Source: Porphyridium purpureum (lineage: Eukaryota). Taken from it: a stretch of DNA of 64,000 nucleotides. The position numbers and the translations under genes were made by a program. This document shows, one piece after another, positions 53,557 through 64,000 of this stretch; position 1 is the stretch's first letter, and each line of letters begins with the position of its first letter. Where the stretch lies: assembly GCA_008690995.1 (NCBI GenBank), contig VRMN01000002.1, positions 2,108,001-2,172,000 of the forward strand. The letters are read 5' to 3'. Below the pieces are notes generated by a model, which worked only from the letters and a program-made list of their open reading frames with translations, was not told the DNA's origin and made no database searches.

Positions 53557-56500
53557 ATGGCGGTCGCTTCGCTCGATCCAGAGGAGGTGGACTTCATCCG
53601 GTTTGTGAAGGAGGGCCATTTGCGACTGTGCGCGGATGGACAAACGCGCGCCGACGACGCGCCGGAGCTTGTGGTTCCGCGCGTTCAGGACGACCTGATT
53701 GCGGCGGACTCGCGAGCGGGGTACTTGTTTGTGGGCGATCCTTCAGCATGTGCTCTCGCGGTCATGCGCCTGCGCGACTTTGAAAAGGAGGCCGAAACGC
53801 ACAGGGAACTCAAGCCAGACGCCGCGTTGCCACAAGCAGACACAGTGAAGCGGTTGGTGCTCGGAGAGGCGAACTATGTGTGCTCAGTACACGTATCCAG
53901 CGCAGATGTGGTGCAGGCGTGTATGTTCGCGGAAGGGCGTCGCGGTGATGCGGACGATGACACGGACGGCTTCACGGCAATGTTGGCGGTCGGAACAAGT
54001 GACCACCCACGTGCAACACGTGCAGATCAGGTACTGATTTACGACATGGCACACATTCACGCTTACATAGACGATCCGTCCAACCGCGCGACGATGCCAG
54101 CACCCGCAGTCACTCTCAGACCACGCGCACCTGAAGTCAGGATATCAAGATTTACATTCGTGCCCGCCAGTGTCCGGGCGACTTTTGCAGACCGCCCGTC
54201 TCGGTGCCCAGCAGACGTTATGTGGGTTCTCACGTCTGGAGCAGTTGAAATACGGAGCGTGACCCGGCAAGATGACGCGCTTGAGGTACACCGTGCAAAG
54301 AACGATGCAGATTTTGGAAGCCATGCCAGCGTGGTCGGCCCGCATCGTGTTTGCGTCGCCACGAGCAGCGCGTCCGTCCTATTCTATGACATTGATGCTC
54401 TGTCGTCATCGGCAAGTGGCGCGAGTGTGTCCCATCTCAGTGCGGACGATACTAGGCGGGTCCCTGCGCCAGCTTGCGATGAAGGTGAAGGGACAATCAT
54501 CATACACTGCGGATTGCTGTCACCTGTTCATCTTCTGGTCATCTACTACAATTTAGAGGATGCGATGAGCAACTTTGTAGTTGTAGATATGCAGACCTGG
54601 CAGCGAACGTCGCTCGGCATGCTGTGCCCGAGTATGGTGGAGATGGATGAGCAGGAGGACGAACAGTTTGATGAGACAGATCTAGCACCGCATATGTTTG
54701 TCCGCTGTATTCCGGACATGTCGTGCGCTGTCGTCGCGTCGTCGCAGTGCACCGATCTGGAAGTACTGCACTTCGATGCGGACCAAAGCACATGGCTCAA
54801 CTATCTTCTCCAAGAGGGTAGTCAGGCGAGTCTTCCGATGGCTATTCAGGGCCATGGTACTGAGGACACATATCCTGTGGGCCTTGCGCTGGACCTCACG
54901 CGTATGGATCCGGTCCTGCACCGCGATGCTGCGTCGGGTGCGTCGGATCTGCCGCCTATGCCTCGCGTTCTGGTTTTGTCCACAGCCTCGGTCGTGGTTC
55001 CCTTTTGCGTTGCTGATGACCGGCGCGACGTCCGGTGTGGTCTCTTGGGACCACCTGCGGTGCCCGTGGCGATCGCTTGGTCAGACTTACTGCGCAGTGT
55101 CAGCGCTACTCCAGAGATACAGCTGAGTGGGGATAAGGGGCAAACCCAGGCGCTCGCAAGCGCAGCATCGGCGCTCCTTCCCGACGATAGTTCTGTCGAC
55201 GAAAAATCTGATAGCGTGGACGGGGACGACGACGACGACGACGAAAAGGCTGGACGCTCATTTACAAGTCCAGCAGAAAGCGACAACCTGACAGATAGTG
55301 CCTCGAGGAGCTCAGGGTCGACGGCAAATGAGCAGGAACACGCTGACGCGCTGAACGAGCTGAAAGCTGTCTTGGAAGGTGGACTGGCTCTGGGCAAGGA
55401 CCCGTCGAGCGGAGCCGGTCGTGAAGAAGGTGGAGGCCGGAGCCGCGTTGATGCATCTGCATTAGGTCGTGAGACTCAATCGGGATTGTTTGCTCCGCAG
55501 CGCGTTGCCACGACGAGTGTGGAAATAACTAGTGATTCGATTGGGGCCAAGGTGCCGCCCGCATCCTTCGATGCGCCCGCGATTGCATCGTTTCCCGCTC
55601 GAGACGAGGCGCAGGCAAAAGAGACCAGACAGGGCGTCAGCAATGTTGCTCCCTTTGCGGTCCCATCGAGCGCATCCAAAAACGACAGGCGCGACGCCGT
55701 CGCTCGCGCGGCCGAAGCCCGCGCGCTTGGAGCACGTGCGCCGAGCGAAAGTGCGCCTAAATCCCATCAGAGCGGCCCTACTTCTCTTGAGACGCCCGTG
55801 CTTGAACCATCATCGGCTGAGAAATCGTCGACATCATCGCAGGCGGCGAACGCTTCTGATGCGACCGGAGTGACAGACGCGCAGTCACTGAAGCCTGAAA
55901 CGGGTCCGCCCGCACGGCCCGTGCCGCCGCGTGCGGACGACATCCAAGGTCAGGTTCAGGTGCTCATGGATGAAATACGGGAGGAGATGAACCAGACTGC
56001 GCAGCTTGTGGCAGACACGATCCAGACTGTGGAGACAAGGGACATAGAACTTTCCCACTTTTGCAAGCTTGTACGCGACGATGCTGGAAGTTTGTCTCGC
56101 AAACTCAAGGAGACTATGCGCATGCAGCGACTCCGTTTTGATCAGGTCCATGATCACGTCGATTGGCTAGGTAAAGCCAATGGACAGTACCAGCAAACGC
56201 TGTTTGAGATGAAGCGCAATCAGGAGCGCGCGCGGCTGGCAGCGGCGGCGGTGGAACATGCAAGCGAAGAAGCTGCGGACATTGATATTTATGAGCACAA
56301 ATTTGGAAATTCGCGGGCTGCTCGAAGTGTGCGCGCGTTGGAGGAAAAAATGGGGCTTGTGCGTGAAATGCTGGCGGGACTGAACGCGCAAATAGATCGC
56401 GATGCAAAAGCTATGCAGGAGTCAGAGCAAATTGGCGAGGCGCATGCCCAGACGCAGAGCCGTGCCACGCCATTGAGGTCCGTTTCGAGTGATGTGTATC

Positions 56501-59500
56501 GTCAGATCTACTCCACAATGAGTGCGCAGGGTATGCGCCTGAAACAGATAAGCTCGTTGCTTGAGAGTATTGAGAATGATGTTCTTTATTACGAGGGGAA
56601 TGGATCGTCCGAGCAACTTTTGCGGCGCCCAGGGAATGAGGATATGACTAGTACCCCATCTTCATCTCACCTTCAGAATCTTGCCGTGCGCCGAAGAGCA
56701 GGAGAATCACTTTTGGCGTCACCGTCTGCGTCGCGCTCATCTTATTCCTCTCATGTGATGATGACGCCATTGCCGCCGCACGCGCACAAGACCAGTCCAT
56801 CAACGGGAGTTAGGGCGTCAGGGCTTAGAGATCGCCCTAGCGCTTATAAGTATTCCGCGGCAAGTGCAGCAGGCGCGACCGGAAGGTCGACGACGAAATC
56901 ATCGCACGCATCGTACGCGTCAAGCACGAGCGGGACCCCATACTCGCAGCGCTCGCAGGTGAGCGAAGGAACACTGCGGGCTCTAAAGACGCTTTCATGT
57001 CGAAAGGAGCATCACGCCATTCGCGCAGATGCAAGATACGAAGCACTTTTCCCGTCACCAGCTGCCCCAATTGCGAAGGCGCCTTCATCAAAGGAGAAAG
57101 ACGGCAAGGCGACGACTCTGACTAGTATGAAATCAAGAGTATTTGAACCGCCGCAGCAGCCGGTACGCGCGCCAGTGCCGCCCAAACAATTTTCAGATGC
57201 GCGTCAGTTCGCGCAGGAACCGGTACATCAGGACAGCCGAGGCAAAACACACGATCATGGAGGCTTGTCGGCTGCCGACACACCCAGCGCATTCGGCTTT
57301 GATGCGCGTGCCGATGCACGTAGTTCGCACGCACCAGAAGATGATAGTCTTTATCGAGAGTCGTGGCATCGGGGATTTGAAGGGTCAGCGGTTAAGGATT
57401 CAGGATTTCATGCTGCGAAGTCTGACCCGAACGGTGCGAAATTACAGCAGTCCGCGTTGAAGACGGCAGCGCCTCAGCACATGCAAAGGCCGCAAGCTCG
57501 ACCGAATACGGGAGGTCTGCCGCCAGATGACTCGGTGTATGACAAGCCAAAGTCTGCAGCACAGCAGATGCAAAAGCCACAAGCTCGACCGAATACGGGA
57601 GGTCTACCGCCAGATGACTCGGTGTATGACAAGCCAAAGCCTGCAGCGCAGCAGATGCAAAAGCCGCAAGCTCGGCCGAGCGCAGGAGGTCTACCGCCGG
57701 ACGACTCGGTGTATGACAAGCCAAAGTCTGCAGCGCAGCAGATGCAAAAGCCGCAAGCTCGACCGAATACGGGAGGTCTACCGCCAGATGACTCGGTGTA
57801 TGACAAGCCAAAGCCTGCAGCGCAGCAGATGCAAAAGCCGCAAGCTCGGCCGAGCGCAGGAGGTCTACCGCCGGACGACTCGGTGTATGACAAGCCAAAG
57901 TCTGCAGCGCAGCAGATGCAAAAGCCGCAAGCTCGGCCAAGTGCAGGAGGTCTGCCGCCGGACGACTCGGTGTATGACAAGCCAAAGTCTGCAGCACAGC
58001 AGATGCAAAAGCCGCAAGCATGGCCTGGTTTCGGCAACATTTCTGGGGCCAGACAAGAGTCGGCTTCTGGCTCTGTAAGTGGTGGCAACCTTTTCTCAGA
58101 TTCGCGAACGGCACCTTCATTTACTGCTTCATCTTTCGCGGCCTCAAAGGATGGAAAACCAGAATTGGTGTCGAGCTTTAGTTTCGGTACCGCGCAGAGT
58201 GAATCTTCCAATGCATCGTTTGCACAGCCATCTCGTGTTGACATCAATGCAGCGGATGTGAAACAGGATCAGGACAAAGGCTCCTCGCCTTTTGGAGCTT
58301 CGCCACAGGAAAAGCCATCATTCTCGAGCTTTGGGGCAGCGTCTGCACGCAGCGGAAGTCTAGCCGGGGGGTTGAGTGGTCTAGGTGGGATAGCGGACGC
58401 ACTTTCTCTTGGTGATTCTGCGGCGAGCGGCAACGCAGAGACACCAGGACCGCCGTTTGGATCGACAGCGCCGGCGTTTGGATCGTCGCCACCGGCGTTT
58501 GGGTCAACCGCAGCAGCGTTCGGATCGACTGCGCCGGCGTTTGGATCGACTGCGCCGGCGTTTGGATCAACTTCTGCAGCGTTTGGATCGTCTGCACCAG
58601 CGTTTGGATCGTCTGCACCAGCATTTGGATCGTCTGCACCAGCGTTTGGAAAGTCAGCCATAGGATTTGCAGGTCAGTCTAGTGGGGGTCTCTCGGGGCC
58701 GACATCCTCGACTCCGTCTTCGGGGACCGGGGTCGGCTTTGGGAATGCAAGTGCACTCGGCGCGTCTTCGGCCCCCGGGAACACGCCCGCGTTTGGCTCT
58801 ACTGCGGCAGGTACGCCTGGTGCCGCTTTTCCGAGCTCCTCTACGTCGAACACTGGCTCTTTGTTCGGGCAAAGTGCTCAACTTGGCAGCGGTTTTGGAC
58901 AACCTTCAGCGTTTGGAGCCACCACACAGATGTCTTCGGCCAAAGGTACAGGTTTTGGCAATGCCAAATCTGGCAGCACGGCTTTTGGATCAGCGTCTCC
59001 GTTGGGCAGCGCGCCAAGCGCGTTTGGTTCGAGTTCGCCGCTTGGAAGTCTAGGGCCACAGAACACGACCGCGTTTGGCTCTGGCGCAATGAGTGGTACA
59101 GTCAGGCTTCCCGGCGGTGGATTTGGATCGGCTAGTGGCTCTGCTGGTACGAGCGGCTTTGGTGCGCTTGCGAATGGTGCAAGTACTGGCGGTGGATTCG
59201 GGCAGCCGTCTGGATTTGGCGCTGTGGCACAACAGGGCTCTACAGGATTTGGTACGCAGGGCTTTGGAACATCAGCACAACAAGCTCCAGCGTTTGGTAC
59301 GCCGTCTGGATTCGGCGCCGCCCAGCAGGCTGCGCCCTTTGGCGCCTCGTCTGGGTTTGGTGCCCCATCTGGTTTCGGAACCGCTCAATCAGGTTTCGGC
59401 CAGTCTGCTGCACAGTTTGGACAGTCAACGGCGTTTGGATCTTTGAACGGCATTGGAGCTGGCCAAGCGGGCGGAAATTCCGGTTTTGGTGGGCTCGCAC

Positions 59501-59577
59501 AGCAACCCACGTCGGGCTTTGGTGGACAGCCTCAGCCTCACGCGCCGGCTCCTTCTTTTGCCGCGCGCAGAATGTAA
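53557..59577 (+). CDS. NUP214: Nucleoporin Nup214/Nup159-like
   Basis: N-terminal beta-propeller-like region (DTYPVGLALD...PPMPRVLVLST), central coiled coil and long C-terminal FG-repeat domain, in Nup214 order. Confidence 0.85.
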   Translation: MAVASLDPEEVDFIRFVKEGHLRLCADGQTRADDAPELVVPRVQDDLIAADSRAGYLFVGDPSACALAVMRLRDFEKEAETHRELKPDAALPQADTVKRLVLGEANYVCSVHVSSADVVQACMFAEGRRGDADDDTDGFTAMLAVGTSDHPRATRADQVLIYDMAHIHAYIDDPSNRATMPAPAVTLRPRAPEVRISRFTFVPASVRATFADRPSRCPADVMWVLTSGAVEIRSVTRQDDALEVHRAKNDADFGSHASVVGPHRVCVATSSASVLFYDIDALSSSASGASVSHLSADDTRRVPAPACDEGEGTIIIHCGLLSPVHLLVIYYNLEDAMSNFVVVDMQTWQRTSLGMLCPSMVEMDEQEDEQFDETDLAPHMFVRCIPDMSCAVVASSQCTDLEVLHFDADQSTWLNYLLQEGSQASLPMAIQGHGTEDTYPVGLALDLTRMDPVLHRDAASGASDLPPMPRVLVLSTASVVVPFCVADDRRDVRCGLLGPPAVPVAIAWSDLLRSVSATPEIQLSGDKGQTQALASAASALLPDDSSVDEKSDSVDGDDDDDDEKAGRSFTSPAESDNLTDSASRSSGSTANEQEHADALNELKAVLEGGLALGKDPSSGAGREEGGGRSRVDASALGRETQSGLFAPQRVATTSVEITSDSIGAKVPPASFDAPAIASFPARDEAQAKETRQGVSNVAPFAVPSSASKNDRRDAVARAAEARALGARAPSESAPKSHQSGPTSLETPVLEPSSAEKSSTSSQAANASDATGVTDAQSLKPETGPPARPVPPRADDIQGQVQVLMDEIREEMNQTAQLVADTIQTVETRDIELSHFCKLVRDDAGSLSRKLKETMRMQRLRFDQVHDHVDWLGKANGQYQQTLFEMKRNQERARLAAAAVEHASEEAADIDIYEHKFGNSRAARSVRALEEKMGLVREMLAGLNAQIDRDAKAMQESEQIGEAHAQTQSRATPLRSVSSDVYRQIYSTMSAQGMRLKQISSLLESIENDVLYYEGNGSSEQLLRRPGNEDMTSTPSSSHLQNLAVRRRAGESLLASPSASRSSYSSHVMMTPLPPHAHKTSPSTGVRASGLRDRPSAYKYSAASAAGATGRSTTKSSHASYASSTSGTPYSQRSQVSEGTLRALKTLSCRKEHHAIRADARYEALFPSPAAPIAKAPSSKEKDGKATTLTSMKSRVFEPPQQPVRAPVPPKQFSDARQFAQEPVHQDSRGKTHDHGGLSAADTPSAFGFDARADARSSHAPEDDSLYRESWHRGFEGSAVKDSGFHAAKSDPNGAKLQQSALKTAAPQHMQRPQARPNTGGLPPDDSVYDKPKSAAQQMQKPQARPNTGGLPPDDSVYDKPKPAAQQMQKPQARPSAGGLPPDDSVYDKPKSAAQQMQKPQARPNTGGLPPDDSVYDKPKPAAQQMQKPQARPSAGGLPPDDSVYDKPKSAAQQMQKPQARPSAGGLPPDDSVYDKPKSAAQQMQKPQAWPGFGNISGARQESASGSVSGGNLFSDSRTAPSFTASSFAASKDGKPELVSSFSFGTAQSESSNASFAQPSRVDINAADVKQDQDKGSSPFGASPQEKPSFSSFGAASARSGSLAGGLSGLGGIADALSLGDSAASGNAETPGPPFGSTAPAFGSSPPAFGSTAAAFGSTAPAFGSTAPAFGSTSAAFGSSAPAFGSSAPAFGSSAPAFGKSAIGFAGQSSGGLSGPTSSTPSSGTGVGFGNASALGASSAPGNTPAFGSTAAGTPGAAFPSSSTSNTGSLFGQSAQLGSGFGQPSAFGATTQMSSAKGTGFGNAKSGSTAFGSASPLGSAPSAFGSSSPLGSLGPQNTTAFGSGAMSGTVRLPGGGFGSASGSAGTSGFGALANGASTGGGFGQPSGFGAVAQQGSTGFGTQGFGTSAQQAPAFGTPSGFGAAQQAAPFGASSGFGAPSGFGTAQSGFGQSAAQFGQSTAFGSLNGIGAGQAGGNSGFGGLAQQPTSGFGGQPQPHAPAPSFAARRM
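57481..58020 (+). repeat. 87-bp (29-aa) coding tandem repeat, 6 copies plus a partial, inside Nup214
   Basis: Units start at 57481, 57568, 57655, 57742, 57829, 57916 and 58003. Consensus MQKPQARP(NT/SA)GGLPPDDSVYDKPK(S/P)AAQQ. Confidence 0.97.
58453..58650 (+). repeat. 21-bp (7-aa) FG repeat array, AFGS(T/S)AP-type, 10 FG units
   Basis: FG codons recur at exact 21-nt spacing from 58456 to 58645. Confidence 0.93.
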
Positions 59578-59763: not shown

Positions 59764-60300
59764 TCACTGTGGCATTCCGCCTTCGGCCATTCCCGCGGGC
59801 AGGTTGTACTTTTGAGCGATCTGCTGGAACTCTTTTTGCATCAAGGCCTTGCTCTGTGCGTATGCCTCAAGCATGGCCTCCGTGACGGACGCGGACACTG
59901 CGTCGGCGCCCTTCTGGAGCAGTTCGTCGCTGATGTCACAGCGCACGGGCACCTGCTGCCCCGTGATCACCATCTTGACCATGCCGTCCTTGCTGGTGAC
60001 CTCGAGCTCGCGATTCTTGAGCTCGTCCTGCATGACCTTTGTCTCCTCTGTGAAAAGCTTTGCGGTCTTCATTGCTTCCATGATATTGCCCATTCCGCCG
60101 AACGGGTTCCCGCCGCCGCCGGCCGGCTTGCTGTCGCCGCCTCCCATGCCCGGGAAGTTGCCAAACAAGCCGCCGCCCTTCTTGTCCTGCATGACGAGCG
60201 TCGCGCTGGCGCGGCGCACGGCGGCCGGCTTGGAGCACAGGGTGCTCTGGCGCGCAGACAGCGCCGCGGCGTTGATTCCACACGCAGATACAAACGCCAT
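59764..60300 (-). CDS. YbaB/EbfC family protein, plastid-targeted (STIC2-like)
   Basis: MAFVSA transit peptide, MGNIMEAMKTAK...MQDELKNRELEVTSKDGMVKMVITGQQVPVRCDISD. Confidence 0.9.
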   Translation of the reverse strand: MAFVSACGINAAALSARQSTLCSKPAAVRRASATLVMQDKKGGGLFGNFPGMGGGDSKPAGGGGNPFGGMGNIMEAMKTAKLFTEETKVMQDELKNRELEVTSKDGMVKMVITGQQVPVRCDISDELLQKGADAVSASVTEAMLEAYAQSKALMQKEFQQIAQKYNLPAGMAEGGMPQ

Positions 60301-60851
60301 GTCTCTGTTGCTCCGCGTCGCGTCAACTCTTTCTTACTCTCTCACACACACTCACACGCTGCTCCCGCACACGCTCCACGACTCGCGCAGCTCCTTCTCA
60401 CGCACAGCGCGCCGGCCGAACAACTGAACACCGCGCGCCGCAAAAGATCTCGCGCAACACTGTACTTCGACTTCCATACCAACTGTACTTTTATAACGTT
60501 AAAGAACGGGATCCGCCAGCCGAGCGGGCGCGGCACGGGTGTGCCGGTGGGAGCCGCGGGACGGCGCGCTGCGCCCGCACGCGGTGCGCGCAAACGCGCG
60601 AATGACTCTCCGATGCTTCCCTTGTGCACACAAGGACAGGACTGTGCACGCTCGGTTCGATGGAACGGTGGAGCGGCCAGCTAGTGCGGCGGTCTCCGCA
60701 TCGGCGCACGCGTACAATCTCACGCACACGCAGGCCAGCGTCGCACGCCAATCGGTTCGGTCCAGTCTAGTCTGATTCGGTTCGGTTCAAACCGGTCGCT
60801 CCCAAGTGAACTGGAACACATCCGGTTTGAACCGGTATTGATACCGGTTTA

Positions 60852-61181
60852 TGCGTGGCCGGACGCGACAAAACGCATAGTCTTTGATGATAGCGTCTTC
60901 GTGAAGCACGCGTATACCAAACGTGTACCAATAGTAAACTACTGGTGGCTAGCTGAAGCAAGAGGTCCACAACAAGACGACTTTACTCCTTAACACAACC
61001 TAGCTCTTGCCTCAAAAGGAGACAGAGCGCCGACTCGTCGGCCGTCTCTCACACTCTAATGATATACTACTGTGGTTAACCATTACGGTCACCAACCAAC
61101 GGAGAGTTGTCATCATTAAGTATTTGATGACTCCTCATCACGTCATCAGGCAGGCAGAGAGGGATGACTATATTCCACGCA
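60852..61181 (-). repeat. Putative 3' LTR (330 bp) of the copia element
   Basis: TG...CA termini with a perfect 7-bp inverted repeat (TGCGTGG at 60852, CCACGCA ending 61181), directly after the polypurine tract. The 5' LTR is outside the window. Confidence 0.65.
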
Positions 61182-61188
61182 CCCCCTC
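61182..61188 (-). other. Polypurine tract (GAGGGGG) of the retrotransposon
   Basis: Typical copia PPT, about 30 nt after the pol stop and adjacent to TG. Confidence 0.75.
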
Positions 61189-61219
61189 ATCACTTCTGCG
61201 CTGGCTGCAAAGGAACGAA

Positions 61220-64000
61220 TCACACTCGCTCGACAAGGTGCCAGCGGGTGTACGGATCACTGTCACACGACATCTTCTCATCATCATGGCTGTACGCATA
61301 GCCGCGCATGCCAGCGTCATCGTCGCAGTCGTCGGGCTGCATGAGCATCGCGAAGGCGTTGCCACGGTTTGCGGCGGAGCGAGCATGCGTCATACGCTGG
61401 GCGATGCCAAGGGATAAGCTTGCACCGTACAGGCCCCACGCGGCTGCATGGCCGCGAAACACGTCGGTGGCAATCGGCTTCGTCAAGCCGTCAGCGATGT
61501 TGTCGCGCGTAGCGACATAGACGAACCTGACGAGTCCGTCCGCTGCTATCTCGTGCAACCATCTCAGAGAGATGCGCTGCATCTTTGGCGCATGCAGTAG
61601 CCGGTCACTGTGGCCGCGCTCCACCGCGCGCAAAGTCGACTCGTTGTCGCACCGCACAACGGTCGGAGGCCAGCGCCTCAAAAGTTCTTCCGCCAGTGTC
61701 GCCACTGGGAACACGCTGCCTTGCGCTGCGTCGTGCAGCGCTACCAACTCAGCCTCGGTCGTCGAGGTGCTGACGCGCCGCTGGCGCCGACTGGTCCAGT
61801 CTACAAGGTGTCGGCATCTGCCATTCGATATGAAGAGCACGGCGCCGCTCGTGGATGACGGTGCCGAGAAGTCGGCATCAGCCCACGCGTGCAACCGAAC
61901 GTCGCGACTGCCTGTCGCGGGTATGTCGTATTGCAGACAGACGTCCGCATGCTTCTTCAGATACCCGACGATCTCGTCGAGCGCGCGATCCGCGCTTGGC
62001 CCCCACCGGTCGACATAACGCGCCACATGCGCCGTGGCATAAGCGATGTCTGCTCGCGTGGTTCGGCTGAGCCACAGCAGTTGGCCAATCACTGTTCGCT
62101 TGTTTGTCGGGCACGCGCGCCCGCCGGGTCCATTGTCGTCGACCCGCTCGCTGAGTGGCGTGCTGCGCACGCGCAAGTTGTCCGCGGTGTGGCCGTTCGC
62201 CACATGGGTGGCGTACACCCCCGAATCCAGTATCCATCGGCCGCCGTCGCGATAGATGTGCATGCCGAGATACTTGATAGGGCGCGTACGCGCCGAGTCT
62301 GCAATGTATTCGACCTTCTGGTCGATTCTGAAGACGGTCTTCAGTTGTTTGACCGCCACTCGTACCGCATCCGCATTGCCGAAGAGTGCGCCATCGTCGA
62401 CGTACATGCTCAGCGTGAGCATGCTGCCGTTCGCGTCGCGGCGCCAGTACTGGTTCTTGTCCGCGTTGGATTCTTGCCATCCAAGCCGCCGGACACGCTC
62501 GCGAGCGTCGTGGCTGAAGTCGCTGCCGCTCCTTTTCATTCCGTACAGAGCCTGCGGTAGCTCCACGACAGGCTCGCTGCATGCGGCCATCTTTCTGTAG
62601 TCGGCTTCGCTGACTAGACCCTTCACGACCGGGACCAGGTCGCGCAGATATCCGAATGTCGGACGGCCGCCCAATGGTGCACTGGGGTAGGCACACGTTA
62701 CGTCGAAGAAGGCGCCGTCGGCGGATGGTCCATGGAGCATGAGCGCCATGCTCATCGAGGCGCGGATCGCCAGCAAACCTGGTGGGCGATCAAAAGGATA
62801 CGGTTCTTCGCGCGCGCGACGCCCATCGGCGTCCAGCACGACGCATCCTTGCGCGACGATGCGGCACTTCGTCTTGTGGAACGACGAAGGCATTTCTGAA
62901 TTCTTCTTGTTGAAGAGGAGCTTCAACTTAACGAATTGCGCGTTCGGAACGCGCGCCGCCACTGCCTTGTCCATCGTGCGGCGGAAAGGCAGAGCGCCGG
63001 TGCTGGTGAGCGCACGAAGCTCGGATGCTAATGCATGGCGGCCGGCGGGCGTGGCCATCGCCACCGCTGTGGCCACAACTTCTGCCACCCCCAGACCTGC
63101 CGCTTCGTCCTCTGGTCCCCCTGTCGCCGCGCTTGTATACATTGCGTCGCTGCTACTCTCTGCTCGCGTCGCGTCGTTCCGCGTCGCGTCGCTCGCTGCT
63201 GCTGCGTGCACTGGAAGCACACCCAGTTCCGCTGCGCGCGCGCGTAAGCCGGCTGGTTTGCGGCCGCGCATGAAGAATGCTGGCCTACCCGCGATGGCAA
63301 GCCAGTCCTCACCAAAACGGGCAATGCCTTCGGATATGGCAATGTCCTCGGCCGGACTCCACGGCAGCTCAATGCGCCGATACTGTGCTCGTGACGCGAG
63401 CTTTCCGTGCTCGTCTCGGTAGCACTGGCAGTGCATTTGCCTGCATGCGCCGTCACCAGTGTGACGTCGGCTGGGCGCCGGACCCAAAATGCATTTCTCG
63501 CATTCGGTGCTCCCACCGACTATTTTCTTGCACTGTGTGCAGAATGCACGGTCCGGTGCATTGTCGCGTGCTCGCGACCATTGATCACCCGTCGCAATGG
63601 CCTCATCCGGAGGCCGCAGTGCCAAACGTCGCAATGGCCACTTGTCGGGAAGTGGCTTCCATTCGCCGACCTTCCTGATCGCAGATGGCCGCAAGTCGGC
63701 AATGGGCAGGGCGAGCAGGTTTATGGGCTGCCGCGGGTCATTCGGCCTCGGTGCCGTGAACCCAACGACGATTGCAGGCACGCCTTTCGGCTCAAATTTG
63801 CCGCGGCTCTCATCGTATATGAGAATGCCGCTCCCGAATGCAGGGATGGGCTTGTGCCATGTCAGACCGAGCCGTTGCTCGAAGCTGGTCTGCTCCTGCT
63901 TTGCGCCGCGCCAGGCGAGGTTTCTGGCCAGGCAAAAGTAGGCGGCGGCGAACGGATACCACGCGGTCGGCAAGCCAGACTGCATCAGCAGTGCTCGCAC
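61220..64000 (-). CDS. pol: Copia Pol polyprotein (partial): integrase C-terminus/SH3-like, Cys/His cluster, Myb/SANT-like domain, RT, RNase H
   Basis: Integrase end RALLMQSGLP..W..A, PAFGS and KFEPKGVPAIVVGF. RT motifs KCRIVAQG, DVTCAY, QALYGMKRSG, YVDD (62393-62404) and YLG. RNase H motifs ADADF, STSTTEAE, CDN and NIADGLTK. No stops over 926 codons. Confidence 0.95.
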   Translation of the reverse strand: MRALLMQSGLPTAWYPFAAAYFCLARNLAWRGAKQEQTSFEQRLGLTWHKPIPAFGSGILIYDESRGKFEPKGVPAIVVGFTAPRPNDPRQPINLLALPIADLRPSAIRKVGEWKPLPDKWPLRRLALRPPDEAIATGDQWSRARDNAPDRAFCTQCKKIVGGSTECEKCILGPAPSRRHTGDGACRQMHCQCYRDEHGKLASRAQYRRIELPWSPAEDIAISEGIARFGEDWLAIAGRPAFFMRGRKPAGLRARAAELGVLPVHAAAASDATRNDATRAESSSDAMYTSAATGGPEDEAAGLGVAEVVATAVAMATPAGRHALASELRALTSTGALPFRRTMDKAVAARVPNAQFVKLKLLFNKKNSEMPSSFHKTKCRIVAQGCVVLDADGRRAREEPYPFDRPPGLLAIRASMSMALMLHGPSADGAFFDVTCAYPSAPLGGRPTFGYLRDLVPVVKGLVSEADYRKMAACSEPVVELPQALYGMKRSGSDFSHDARERVRRLGWQESNADKNQYWRRDANGSMLTLSMYVDDGALFGNADAVRVAVKQLKTVFRIDQKVEYIADSARTRPIKYLGMHIYRDGGRWILDSGVYATHVANGHTADNLRVRSTPLSERVDDNGPGGRACPTNKRTVIGQLLWLSRTTRADIAYATAHVARYVDRWGPSADRALDEIVGYLKKHADVCLQYDIPATGSRDVRLHAWADADFSAPSSTSGAVLFISNGRCRHLVDWTSRRQRRVSTSTTEAELVALHDAAQGSVFPVATLAEELLRRWPPTVVRCDNESTLRAVERGHSDRLLHAPKMQRISLRWLHEIAADGLVRFVYVATRDNIADGLTKPIATDVFRGHAAAWGLYGASLSLGIAQRMTHARSAANRGNAFAMLMQPDDCDDDAGMRGYAYSHDDEKMSCDSDPYTRWHLVERV

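What the first reader, a model, noticed from the sequence alone, without database searches (positions are those of the whole stretch)
63221..63376. Myb/SANT (telobox-like) DNA-binding domain embedded in a copia retrotransposon Pol
Seen: the normally variable linker between the integrase SH3-like tail and RT reads RRIELPWSPAEDIAISEGIARFGEDWLAIAGRPAFFMRGRKPAGLRARAAELG, in frame in an unbroken pol. Known: this fits the single-repeat Myb pattern W-S/T-x-x-E-D-x-x-I/L-x-x-G-I/V-x-x-F/Y-G-x-x-W-x-x-I, with helix 3 R-x-x-x-x-L-R/K-x-R as in TRF/telobox proteins, although the third Trp is replaced by Ala. Integrase C-termini are where targeting modules sit (chromodomains of Ty3/gypsy chromoviruses, the Sir4-binding motif of Ty5, the AC40-binding motif of Ty1). 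I do not know of a Myb domain described in a copia integrase. Inference: this lineage may have captured a Myb/SANT module to steer integration to safe DNA or chromatin sites in a gene-dense genome.
Basis: partly seen in the sequence, partly recalled or inferred. Interest (0 to 1): 0.88.

Follow-up and report, generated by a model that had tools for sequence, protein, structure and literature searches.

The report
Myb- and zinc-tipped copia integrase
A jumping gene, likely of the red microalga Porphyridium, carries a Myb-type domain and an unnamed likely zinc-binding module at the predicted tail of its integrase, and three of four insertion sites seen sit beside the same five-letter DNA word, so the Myb domain likely helps aim insertion there.

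Summary
The Myb is real. It lies in frame in an open copia pol between integrase and RT, and Pfam PF00249 hits 8 of 9 family segments (best E 7.8e-7). It is kept at this position in 13 of 162 related proteins (RT-RH identity 33-68%); all 8 Myb clusters looked up are Porphyridium purpureum. (1) Just upstream lies an unnamed C4-H-C-C-[C/H] module, found in 41 of 162 relatives and likely older than the Myb. Families carry one module or both. (2) Three of four insertion sites have a 5-bp stretch (a paired duplication at one site) followed by GTACA, always on the 5'-LTR side (chance about 3e-4). One is this window's own empty allele. GTACA is 2.8-fold enriched upstream of genes, and no telomere repeat is near. 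(3) The LTR ends are 5'-CG...AG-3', not TG...CA. (4) The closest full-length relatives join gypsy-type Gag and protease to copia-type RT. Best reading: an integrase-borne DNA reader aims insertion at a promoter-type word, as in R2's ZnF+Myb but in an LTR element. Which domain reads the word is untested. I found no such element in the papers searched.

The parts
61220..64000 (-). 3' part of a single open pol frame (integrase end, linker modules, RT, RNase H); runs off the window end
63860..64000 (-). end of the integrase catalytic core (residues 1-47)
   Evidence: aligns at 40-62% identity (residues 1-60) to relatives that carry rve upstream
63617..63859 (-). SH3-like integrase C-terminal domain (residues 48-128)
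   Evidence: PF25597 hits relatives P0026, P0029, P0031, P0038; not hit in P0001 itself
63416..63541 (-). unnamed Cys/His module, C-x2-C-x9-C-x2-C-x9-H-x5-C-x4-C-x-C, predicted to bind two zinc ions
   Evidence: 41 of 162 proteins, first four Cys invariant; pLDDT 87-89; no consistent Pfam or PDB family
63215..63361 (-). single Myb repeat (W214 to L262), third Trp replaced by Ala, basic helix 3
63080..63094 (-). LGVAE motif, predicted protease cut site between integrase and RT
   Evidence: same or similar motif at two Gag/protease junctions and before RT in P0008; cleavage inferred
61901..63091 (-). copia-type reverse transcriptase (YVDD at 62393-62404)
   Evidence: PF07727 E 1.5e-6; 16 synonymous and 3 non-synonymous variants among copies
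61433..61900 (-). RNase H
   Evidence: alignment to relatives
61223..61432 (-). 70-residue C-terminal extension beyond where the aligned relatives end
61182..61197 (-). polypurine tract
   Evidence: sequence
60882..61179 (-). 3' LTR, 298 bp, ends 5'-CG...AG-3' (TG and CA lie 2 and 3 bases inside)
   Evidence: contig of exactly 298 letters in X6; loose ends at 60881/60882 and 61179 in X1, X3, X4, X22, X6, X10, X15, X16
60877..60881 (+). ATAGT, inferred 5-bp target-site duplication; in the empty allele it is followed directly by GTACA
   Evidence: X10 record 1 and its loose end; the 5-bp length comes from the TGGAG pair
59764..60300 (-). host YbaB/EbfC gene; the LTR end lies 582 bp upstream of its ATG, same strand
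   Evidence: PF02575 E 1.6e-14

Best explanation
This is a recently mobile copia-type LTR retrotransposon, likely of Porphyridium purpureum, whose pol carries a Cys/His module and a Myb repeat at the predicted integrase C-terminus, and the Myb likely acts as a tethered DNA reader that helps place insertion next to the word GTACA. Mechanism: protease would cut at LGVAE (inferred), leaving integrase as core, SH3, zinc module, Myb. The tail would bind promoter-type DNA and hold the integration complex so that the 5-bp staggered cut falls directly beside GTACA, with the 5'-LTR end facing it (position shown for 3 of 4 sites; binding inferred). The older zinc module would add affinity or stand in for the Myb, since families keep one module or both (distribution shown; role inferred). 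The benefit would be insertion into short intergenic, gene-upstream DNA of a gene-dense genome (inferred).
For: Domain real and retained. 13 of 162 proteins carry it (two are near-identical); Myb core identity has median 32% against 42% for RT-RH, while the spacers align poorly. All 10 Myb rows in the tree fall in one clade of 19 (97/98*). Helix 3 is basic: R in 9 and 10 of 13 at two columns, R/K/H in 13 of 13 at a third. Target: flanks behind the LTR read AGTTG-GTACA (X3) and TGGAG-GTACA (X6; TGGAG also ends a left flank in X22), and this window's empty allele reads ATAGT-GTACA (X10). Chance that 3 of 4 share any 5-mer is about 1e-5 per offset and 2.4-3.3e-4 over 26 offsets. The mirror motif is in 0 of 5 flanks on the other side (Fisher p 0.048). 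GTACA is 2.8-fold enriched within 300 bp upstream of 28 window ORFs. Precedents: R2 uses Myb plus zinc finger to read a motif upstream of its site (PMC12222951, passages); CoDi-A copia integrases end in a putative chromodomain (PMC2774666, passages).
Against: Only four sites, the motif was seen after the fact, and one site (ATTCT-CCTGT in X4, X16, X22) lacks it. P0002 and P0003 lie inside the Myb clade with open frames and no Myb, so it is dispensable in some lineages. Net charge of the Myb segments ranges from -7 to +7, and is +1 in P0001. Variants within the Myb (1 synonymous, 1 not) and the zinc module (1 and 2) show no purifying signal; numbers are too small. P0001's own Pfam score is below the cut-off and its model is only moderately confident. 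No binding was tested.
Confidence: 0.5

Rival explanations
1. The integrase core, its SH3 domain or the zinc module reads GTACA. The Myb does something else with DNA, such as gripping the element's own unusual LTR ends or adding non-specific affinity.
For: The motif abuts the duplication. The zinc module is basic (median net charge +5, 29 measured), confidently folded and more widespread than the Myb (34 against 5 of 108 representatives with integrase followed by RT). The LTR ends are non-canonical and differ from each other. The LTR holds one GTAC (about as many as chance gives).
Against: Five Myb-only families have lost the zinc module yet several have near-identical open copies. Integrase cores usually give weak, symmetric preferences (own knowledge), whereas this one is one-sided (3 of 4 against 0 of 5).
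Confidence: 0.25
2. A host factor sits on GTAC(A) promoter words and tethers the integrase, as TFIIIB does for Ty3. The Myb would be a SANT-like protein or chromatin contact, not a DNA reader.
For: GTACA is enriched upstream of genes, and two flanks carry further GTAC copies. Ty3 is recruited through its integrase C-terminal region (PMC8632968, passages). Two family Myb segments are acidic (P0034 -5, P0090 -7).
Against: A host protein bound directly against the cut would likely block it; in Ty3, TFIIIB binds from about -15 outward. The best PDB matches are DNA-binding Mybs (E to 2.5e-11), while SANT domains other than RSC8 (E 2e-4) rank low.
Confidence: 0.15
3. The Myb is a captured passenger without a targeting role, and the shared flank word is chance or reflects promoter composition.
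For: Few sites. No within-family selection signal in the module. Lost in P0002 and P0003.
Against: Both core Trp positions are kept (11 of 11 rows that cover the first, 13 of 13 at the second) across families 33-68% identical in RT-RH. Chance stays at 3e-4 with upstream composition.
Confidence: 0.06
4. The Myb is a telobox that aims the element at telomeric repeats (one form of the first reader's idea).
For: Tbf1, Trf1, TRF1 and TRF2 match the family profile over all three helices.
Against: This copy lies between genes. TTAGGG occurs 3 times in 64 kb, none near the site, and no printed flank holds it. The telobox helix-3 signature is absent (recalled motif).
Confidence: 0.04

Closest known systems
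R2 and R4/Dong non-LTR retrotransposons (PMC12222951, PMC7998251; passages seen)
   Same: A Myb domain, in R2 together with zinc fingers, in a retroelement protein, linked to site-specific insertion.
   Different: There the modules are N-terminal on an RT-endonuclease that inserts by target-primed reverse transcription. Here they follow a DDE integrase in an LTR element, the zinc module has another ligand pattern, and the word lies directly beside a 5-bp duplication.
CoDi-A Ty1/copia elements and Ty3/gypsy chromoviruses (PMC2774666, passages; its supplement not opened)
   Same: An extra host-type module at the integrase C-terminus, thought to direct integration.
   Different: Those carry a chromodomain, a histone reader. 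Here it is a Myb plus an unnamed Cys/His module, with a DNA word at a fixed distance.
Ty3, Ty1 and Ty5 targeted integration (PMC8632968 passages for Ty3; Ty1 and Ty5 recalled)
   Same: Integrase C-terminus-dependent insertion near gene starts.
   Different: They use short motifs or surfaces that bind host proteins; no folded DNA-binding domain is captured.
PyRE10G1 of Porphyra yezoensis and the red-algal GalEa-like CoPorcru1/2 (PyRE10G1: title only, PMID 18071621, in a reference list; PMC3587641 passages)
   Same: Red-algal copia-order elements; mixed gypsy/copia features are reported for PyRE10G1.
   Different: GalEa has HX4HX30CX2C, a TGGTAGCAGAGC primer site and TG...CA ends. This family has H-x3-H-x6-C-x2-C, a GGTTATGAG primer site and CG...AG ends, and its gypsy-type parts are Gag and protease. 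No direct sequence comparison with PyRE10G1 or CoPorcru was possible.
TRF/Tbf1 telobox Myb domains (PDB 8x6d, 6k5u, 1ity)
   Same: Single repeat, Gly in helix 1, long loop before helix 3; profile match over three helices.
   Different: Helix 3 reads [DG][VL]RS[RKH]A..LGL instead of LKD(K/R)WR (recalled), and no telomere repeat lies at the sites.
PIF/Harbinger Myb/SANT protein (recalled)
   Same: A Myb-like domain serving transposition.
   Different: A separate protein of a DNA transposon that binds the transposon's own ends.

Membership tests
Myb/SANT domain (PF00249) | Profile match over the whole repeat | tested here: met
   Model positions 1-43 of 46 in P0020, P0021, P0025; 8 of 9 segments hit, best E 7.8e-7. 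P0001 alone covers 3-28 at 22.2 bits, below the cut-off.
Myb/SANT domain (PF00249) | Three-helix helix-turn-helix fold | tested here: inconclusive
   Three helices predicted at pLDDT 54-68. VIA-align rows are mostly homeodomain/Myb-type HTH at Z 2-3 only; c-Myb R2 Z 2.3, rmsd 2.9, 45 aligned.
Myb/SANT domain (PF00249) | Three spaced Trp/aromatic core residues | tested here: inconclusive
   First two Trp conserved; the third position is Ala in 11 of 13. Some natural Mybs have the same change (recalled).
Myb/SANT domain (PF00249) | Sequence-specific DNA binding by helix 3 | not testable with these tools
   Basic helix 3 and a target word are indirect.
TRF/telobox Myb | Helix-3 signature LKD(K/R)WR (recalled) | tested here: not met
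   Alignments.
TRF/telobox Myb | Association with telomeric repeats | tested here: not met
   None in the printed flanks or near the window site; host telomere repeat assumed TTAGGG-like.
SHAQKYF/CCA1-class Myb | SHAQKY motif or class profile | tested here: inconclusive
   6nvz E 0.22, helices 1-2 only. No NCBIfam Myb hit for 9 of 9; that library may lack the model.
Ty1/copia | Order PR-IN-RT-RH with copia-type RT | tested here: met
   IN-RT-RH in the window with PF07727; PR-IN-RT-RH in P0008, P0019, P0020.
Ty1/copia | Copia-type Gag and protease | tested here: not met
   In relatives P0008, P0019, P0020, P0060: PF03732, PF19259, PF13975 (gypsy type), no PF14223 or PF22936. The window's own Gag lies outside the window.
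Ty1/copia | LTRs ending TG...CA with a 5-bp duplication | tested here: not met
   5-bp duplication seen at one paired site; ends are CG...AG.
Half-tRNA-Met-primed copia (hemivirus/Osser type) | Primer site complementary to half tRNA-iMet | tested here: inconclusive
   Loose ends in X1 and X10 give GGTTATGAGCCCAGC right after the LTR. The match to the tRNA anticodon arm is recalled and the host tRNA was not available. The class is described in PMC6317226 (passages).
GalEa clade | HX4HX30CX2C finger, TGGTAGCAGAGC primer site, TG...CA ends | tested here: not met
   Features; this family differs in all three.
Known zinc fingers (PHD, zf-CXXC, CXC, zinc ribbon) | Profile or fold match of the Cys/His module | tested here: inconclusive
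   15 members hit 23 Pfam families, none shared by two members. Best PDB hit is L37e at E 0.027 on the first half only. The module was not folded alone.

The most novel reading that the evidence does not exclude
A lineage of hybrid LTR retrotransposons (gypsy-type Gag and protease, copia-type RT, CG...AG ends) has evolved R2-style direct, oriented sequence targeting. Its integrase ends in interchangeable DNA readers, an undescribed zinc module and a captured TRF-like Myb, and each Porphyridium family's helix 3 sets its own target word. That would be a natural, modular, sequence-addressable DDE integrase.
Probability: 0.3. Interest if true: 0.9.

Novelty: new variant of a known kind. Interest (0 to 1): 0.76.

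Why it matters
LTR-retrotransposon targeting is known mainly through histone readers or host-protein tethers. Myb-based DNA reading is known from non-LTR elements. A Myb on a copia integrase with a fixed, one-sided target word would join the two. One small genome holds families with the Myb only, the zinc module only and both, so which module sets the site can be read from existing genome data. The zinc module is itself an unnamed domain spread over 39 of the 150 nearest representatives. A DDE integrase with a swappable DNA-reading tail would also interest people who build insertion tools for algae.

Tried and rejected
LTR read as TG...CA at 60852-61181 from a 7-bp inverted repeat: rejected by the loose ends and the 298-letter contig. 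Degenerate Myb in P0003, P0002 or P0004: rejected, scores at shuffle level. SHAQKYF class: not supported. zf-CXXC or PHD likeness of the zinc module (spacing recalled): no such hit. Single-sequence fold failed (pLDDT 37.9). Foldseek found no match with E <= 0.001, and VIA-align rows covered only residues 65-116, so the zinc part was barely tested. The word search on residues 130-280 found nothing among 2286 candidates. The metagenome scan gave 43 generic copia loci only; the viral scan confirmed none of 38 stretches. No whole genome was held and the Atlas could not read the queries. Selection among copies is clear overall (26 synonymous, 16 not, p 5e-6) but comes from RT; the modules are uninformative, and the variant table was cut by 4 rows. 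RNA depth on the element in X22 is mostly under 7 with both strands, against 56-215 over most of the EbfC gene: expression not shown. Trees left out 12 of 161 proteins with short or no RT-RH, among them Myb-bearing P0062 and P0090; the careful tree used 36 of the 149 rows. Literature searches for a Myb or SANT domain in a copia or LTR integrase and for Porphyridium elements showed none in the listings; only 11 papers were opened, by passages. Repbase, subscription journals and supplements were not seen and could hold a description.
Full report
Observation. The minus strand carries one open frame from the window end to 61220, 926 codons (P0001). Pfam PF00249 hits it at E 0.0064 in the whole ORF and 1.6e-4 alone, below the curated cut-off and over helices 1-2 only. 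On its own this would be suggestive, not conclusive.

The family settles it. A profile search of 1.84 billion representatives returned 150 best hits. Iterated local profiles found the Myb in 13 of 162 family proteins, with the next score at 9.6 against 52.6 or more, and in 6 of 8 further cluster members. P0001 and P0008 align over it without gaps, beyond all 5000 shuffles. Pfam covers positions 1-43 of 46 in P0020, P0021 and P0025 and hits 8 of 9 segments, best E 7.8e-7. A two-sequence profile gave 24 PDB hits, 23 of them Myb/SANT proteins by name or my knowledge. A nine-sequence profile reached E 2.5e-11 on c-Myb; its best matches across all three helices were MYB24, Tbf1, Trf1 and TRF1. AlphaFold2 gave three helices at pLDDT 54-68, with only weak HTH fold matches (Z 2-3). 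All 8 Myb-bearing clusters looked up are Porphyridium purpureum proteins annotated only as Copia, TNT-1-94 Pol or hypothetical; P0030, P0040 and P0090 were not looked up. The window's genes lie on a contig of the same length as named P. purpureum proteins, so the host is very likely that species.

A second module. Directly upstream (63416-63541) lies C-x2-C-x9-C-x2-C-x9-H-x5-C-x4-C-x-C. It occurs in 41 of 162 proteins (next score 4.8). The first four Cys are invariant, His is in 37, and the last ligand is Cys in 30 or shifted to G-H in 9. It folds at pLDDT 87-89, is basic (median +5) and matches no family consistently. It is spread through a broad branch of 87 tree rows, while all 10 Myb rows fall in one clade of 19 (97/98*). 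The simplest history is an old zinc module, a later Myb gain, then losses of either (inferred; the root rests on two generic copia rows). P0001, P0019 and P0062 have both; P0023 has the Myb and half the zinc module; P0008, P0020, P0021, P0025 and P0030 have the Myb only (P0030 is a fragment); P0002, P0003 and P0031 have the zinc module only. Neither occurs in 43 generic copia loci. An LGVAE-like motif stands before RT and at two Gag/protease junctions of P0008, so both modules are predicted to stay on the mature integrase.

Element ends and target. Runs laid on the locus show loose ends at 60881/60882 and 61179 and a contig of exactly 60882-61179. The LTR is therefore 298 bp with ends CG...AG; TG and CA lie 2 and 3 bases inside. 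The primer site reads GGTTATGAGCCCAGC, the half-tRNA-iMet type (match recalled; class in PMC6317226, passages). X10 holds the empty allele of this site, ATAGT then GTACAC. Two other 5'-LTR flanks read TGGAG-GTACAT (X6) and AGTTG-GTACAA (X3). TGGAG also ends a 3'-side flank in X22, which gives a 5-bp duplication; that X22 row is a consensus of 25 reads at 0.84 agreement and comes from another run than X6. A fourth flank (ATTCT-CCTGT; X4, X16, X22) lacks the word. By hand, the 0.63-agreement rows of X4 and X6 resolve as a mix of the primer site and one X3 flank and add no new site. Three of four sharing a 5-mer has a chance of 2.4-3.3e-4 after allowing 26 offsets; 0 of 5 flanks on the other side show the mirror word (Fisher p 0.048); GTACA is 2.8-fold enriched upstream of 28 window ORFs. 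Depth in X3 (58.5 on the host gene, 189-218 on most of the interior, 690 on the LTR) suggests a few full copies and some solo LTRs, but the tool warns that depth is no copy number. Differing flanks, an empty allele and about 1% divergence with a synonymous excess (26 of 42, p 5e-6) point to recent activity.

Mechanism. Shown: the domain, its position, its retention, the zinc module, the LTR ends and the word at 3 of 4 sites. Inferred: the cut site, DNA binding, and which domain reads the word. I favour the Myb as a tethered reader (0.5), because its helix 3 is basic and conserved and because R2 uses Myb plus zinc finger this way (PMC12222951, passages; PMC7998251, passages). The word touches the duplication, so reading by the core, the SH3 domain or the zinc module remains a strong rival (0.25). 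A host tether as in Ty3 (PMC8632968, passages) is third (0.15). Telomere targeting is disfavoured.

Comparison and novelty. Extra modules on integrase tails are known: chromodomains in chromoviruses and CoDi-A copia (PMC2774666, passages). 'Myb' was absent from the main text of the fungal and plant LTR surveys I searched (PMC3248453; PMC6317226) and occurred only as host genes in a 2025 review (PMC12477314). Five searches for a Myb or SANT domain in LTR integrases listed no such description (listings only). PMC2836005, PMC2806351, PMC5445492 and PMC3587641 were seen as passages; the PyRE10G1 paper only as a title. Repbase and supplements were not seen. The closest full-length relatives have gypsy-type Gag and protease before a short H-x3-H-x6-C-x2-C integrase; this was not testable for the window's own copy. 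An earlier unreviewed note of this scan on the same genome (e1-10699422) reports a Myb-tipped integrase with a fixed target word at four of five sites. It agrees, but it may rest on the same family and runs, so I do not count it as support. I rate this a new variant of a known kind, interest 0.76.

Noticed in passing
P0008, P0019, P0020, P0059, P0060 (relatives; the matching part lies beyond window position 64000): Gypsy-type Gag (PF03732, PF19259) and protease (PF13975) are fused in one frame to a copia-order IN-RT-RH: a likely gypsy/copia hybrid. A local Gag-PR profile hit strongly only 12 proteins of this subclade.
   Followed up: partly
window 60882-61179: LTR ends are CG...AG, so both joined 3' ends would be G, not CA. 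TG and CA are recessed by 2 and 3 bases.
   Followed up: partly
window 60594-60881 and the X10 empty allele: The site lies in a patch of CGGTT/GGTTCA repeats with a 13-bp inverted repeat (60783-60795 / 60822-60834); X3 has a loose end at 60594. It may be a small DNA-transposon remnant.
   Followed up: no
window 60451 and 35975; X4/X15/X16/X22 flanks: The 9-mer TGTTGCGCG is in two different insertion flanks and upstream of the EbfC gene; possibly a second promoter word.
   Followed up: partly
window 60594-60910, run X3: The junction contig has depth 33.9 against 58.5 for the host gene, as if the insertion were on one of two alleles.
   Followed up: no
window 61223-61432: About 70 extra residues after RNase H, absent from the five aligned relatives.
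   Followed up: no
window 53557-59577: Intronless 2006-aa Nup159/Nup214-like gene (PF16755, E 2.6e-4) with about six 29-residue tandem repeats and an FG-rich tail.
   Followed up: no
P0041: A family member ends in an AAA_28 NTPase domain after RNase H (E 4.6e-13).
   Followed up: no
150 representatives: A very short integrase finger, H-x3-H-x6-C-x2-C, is in 41 of 150 and may mark this whole branch.
   Followed up: partly
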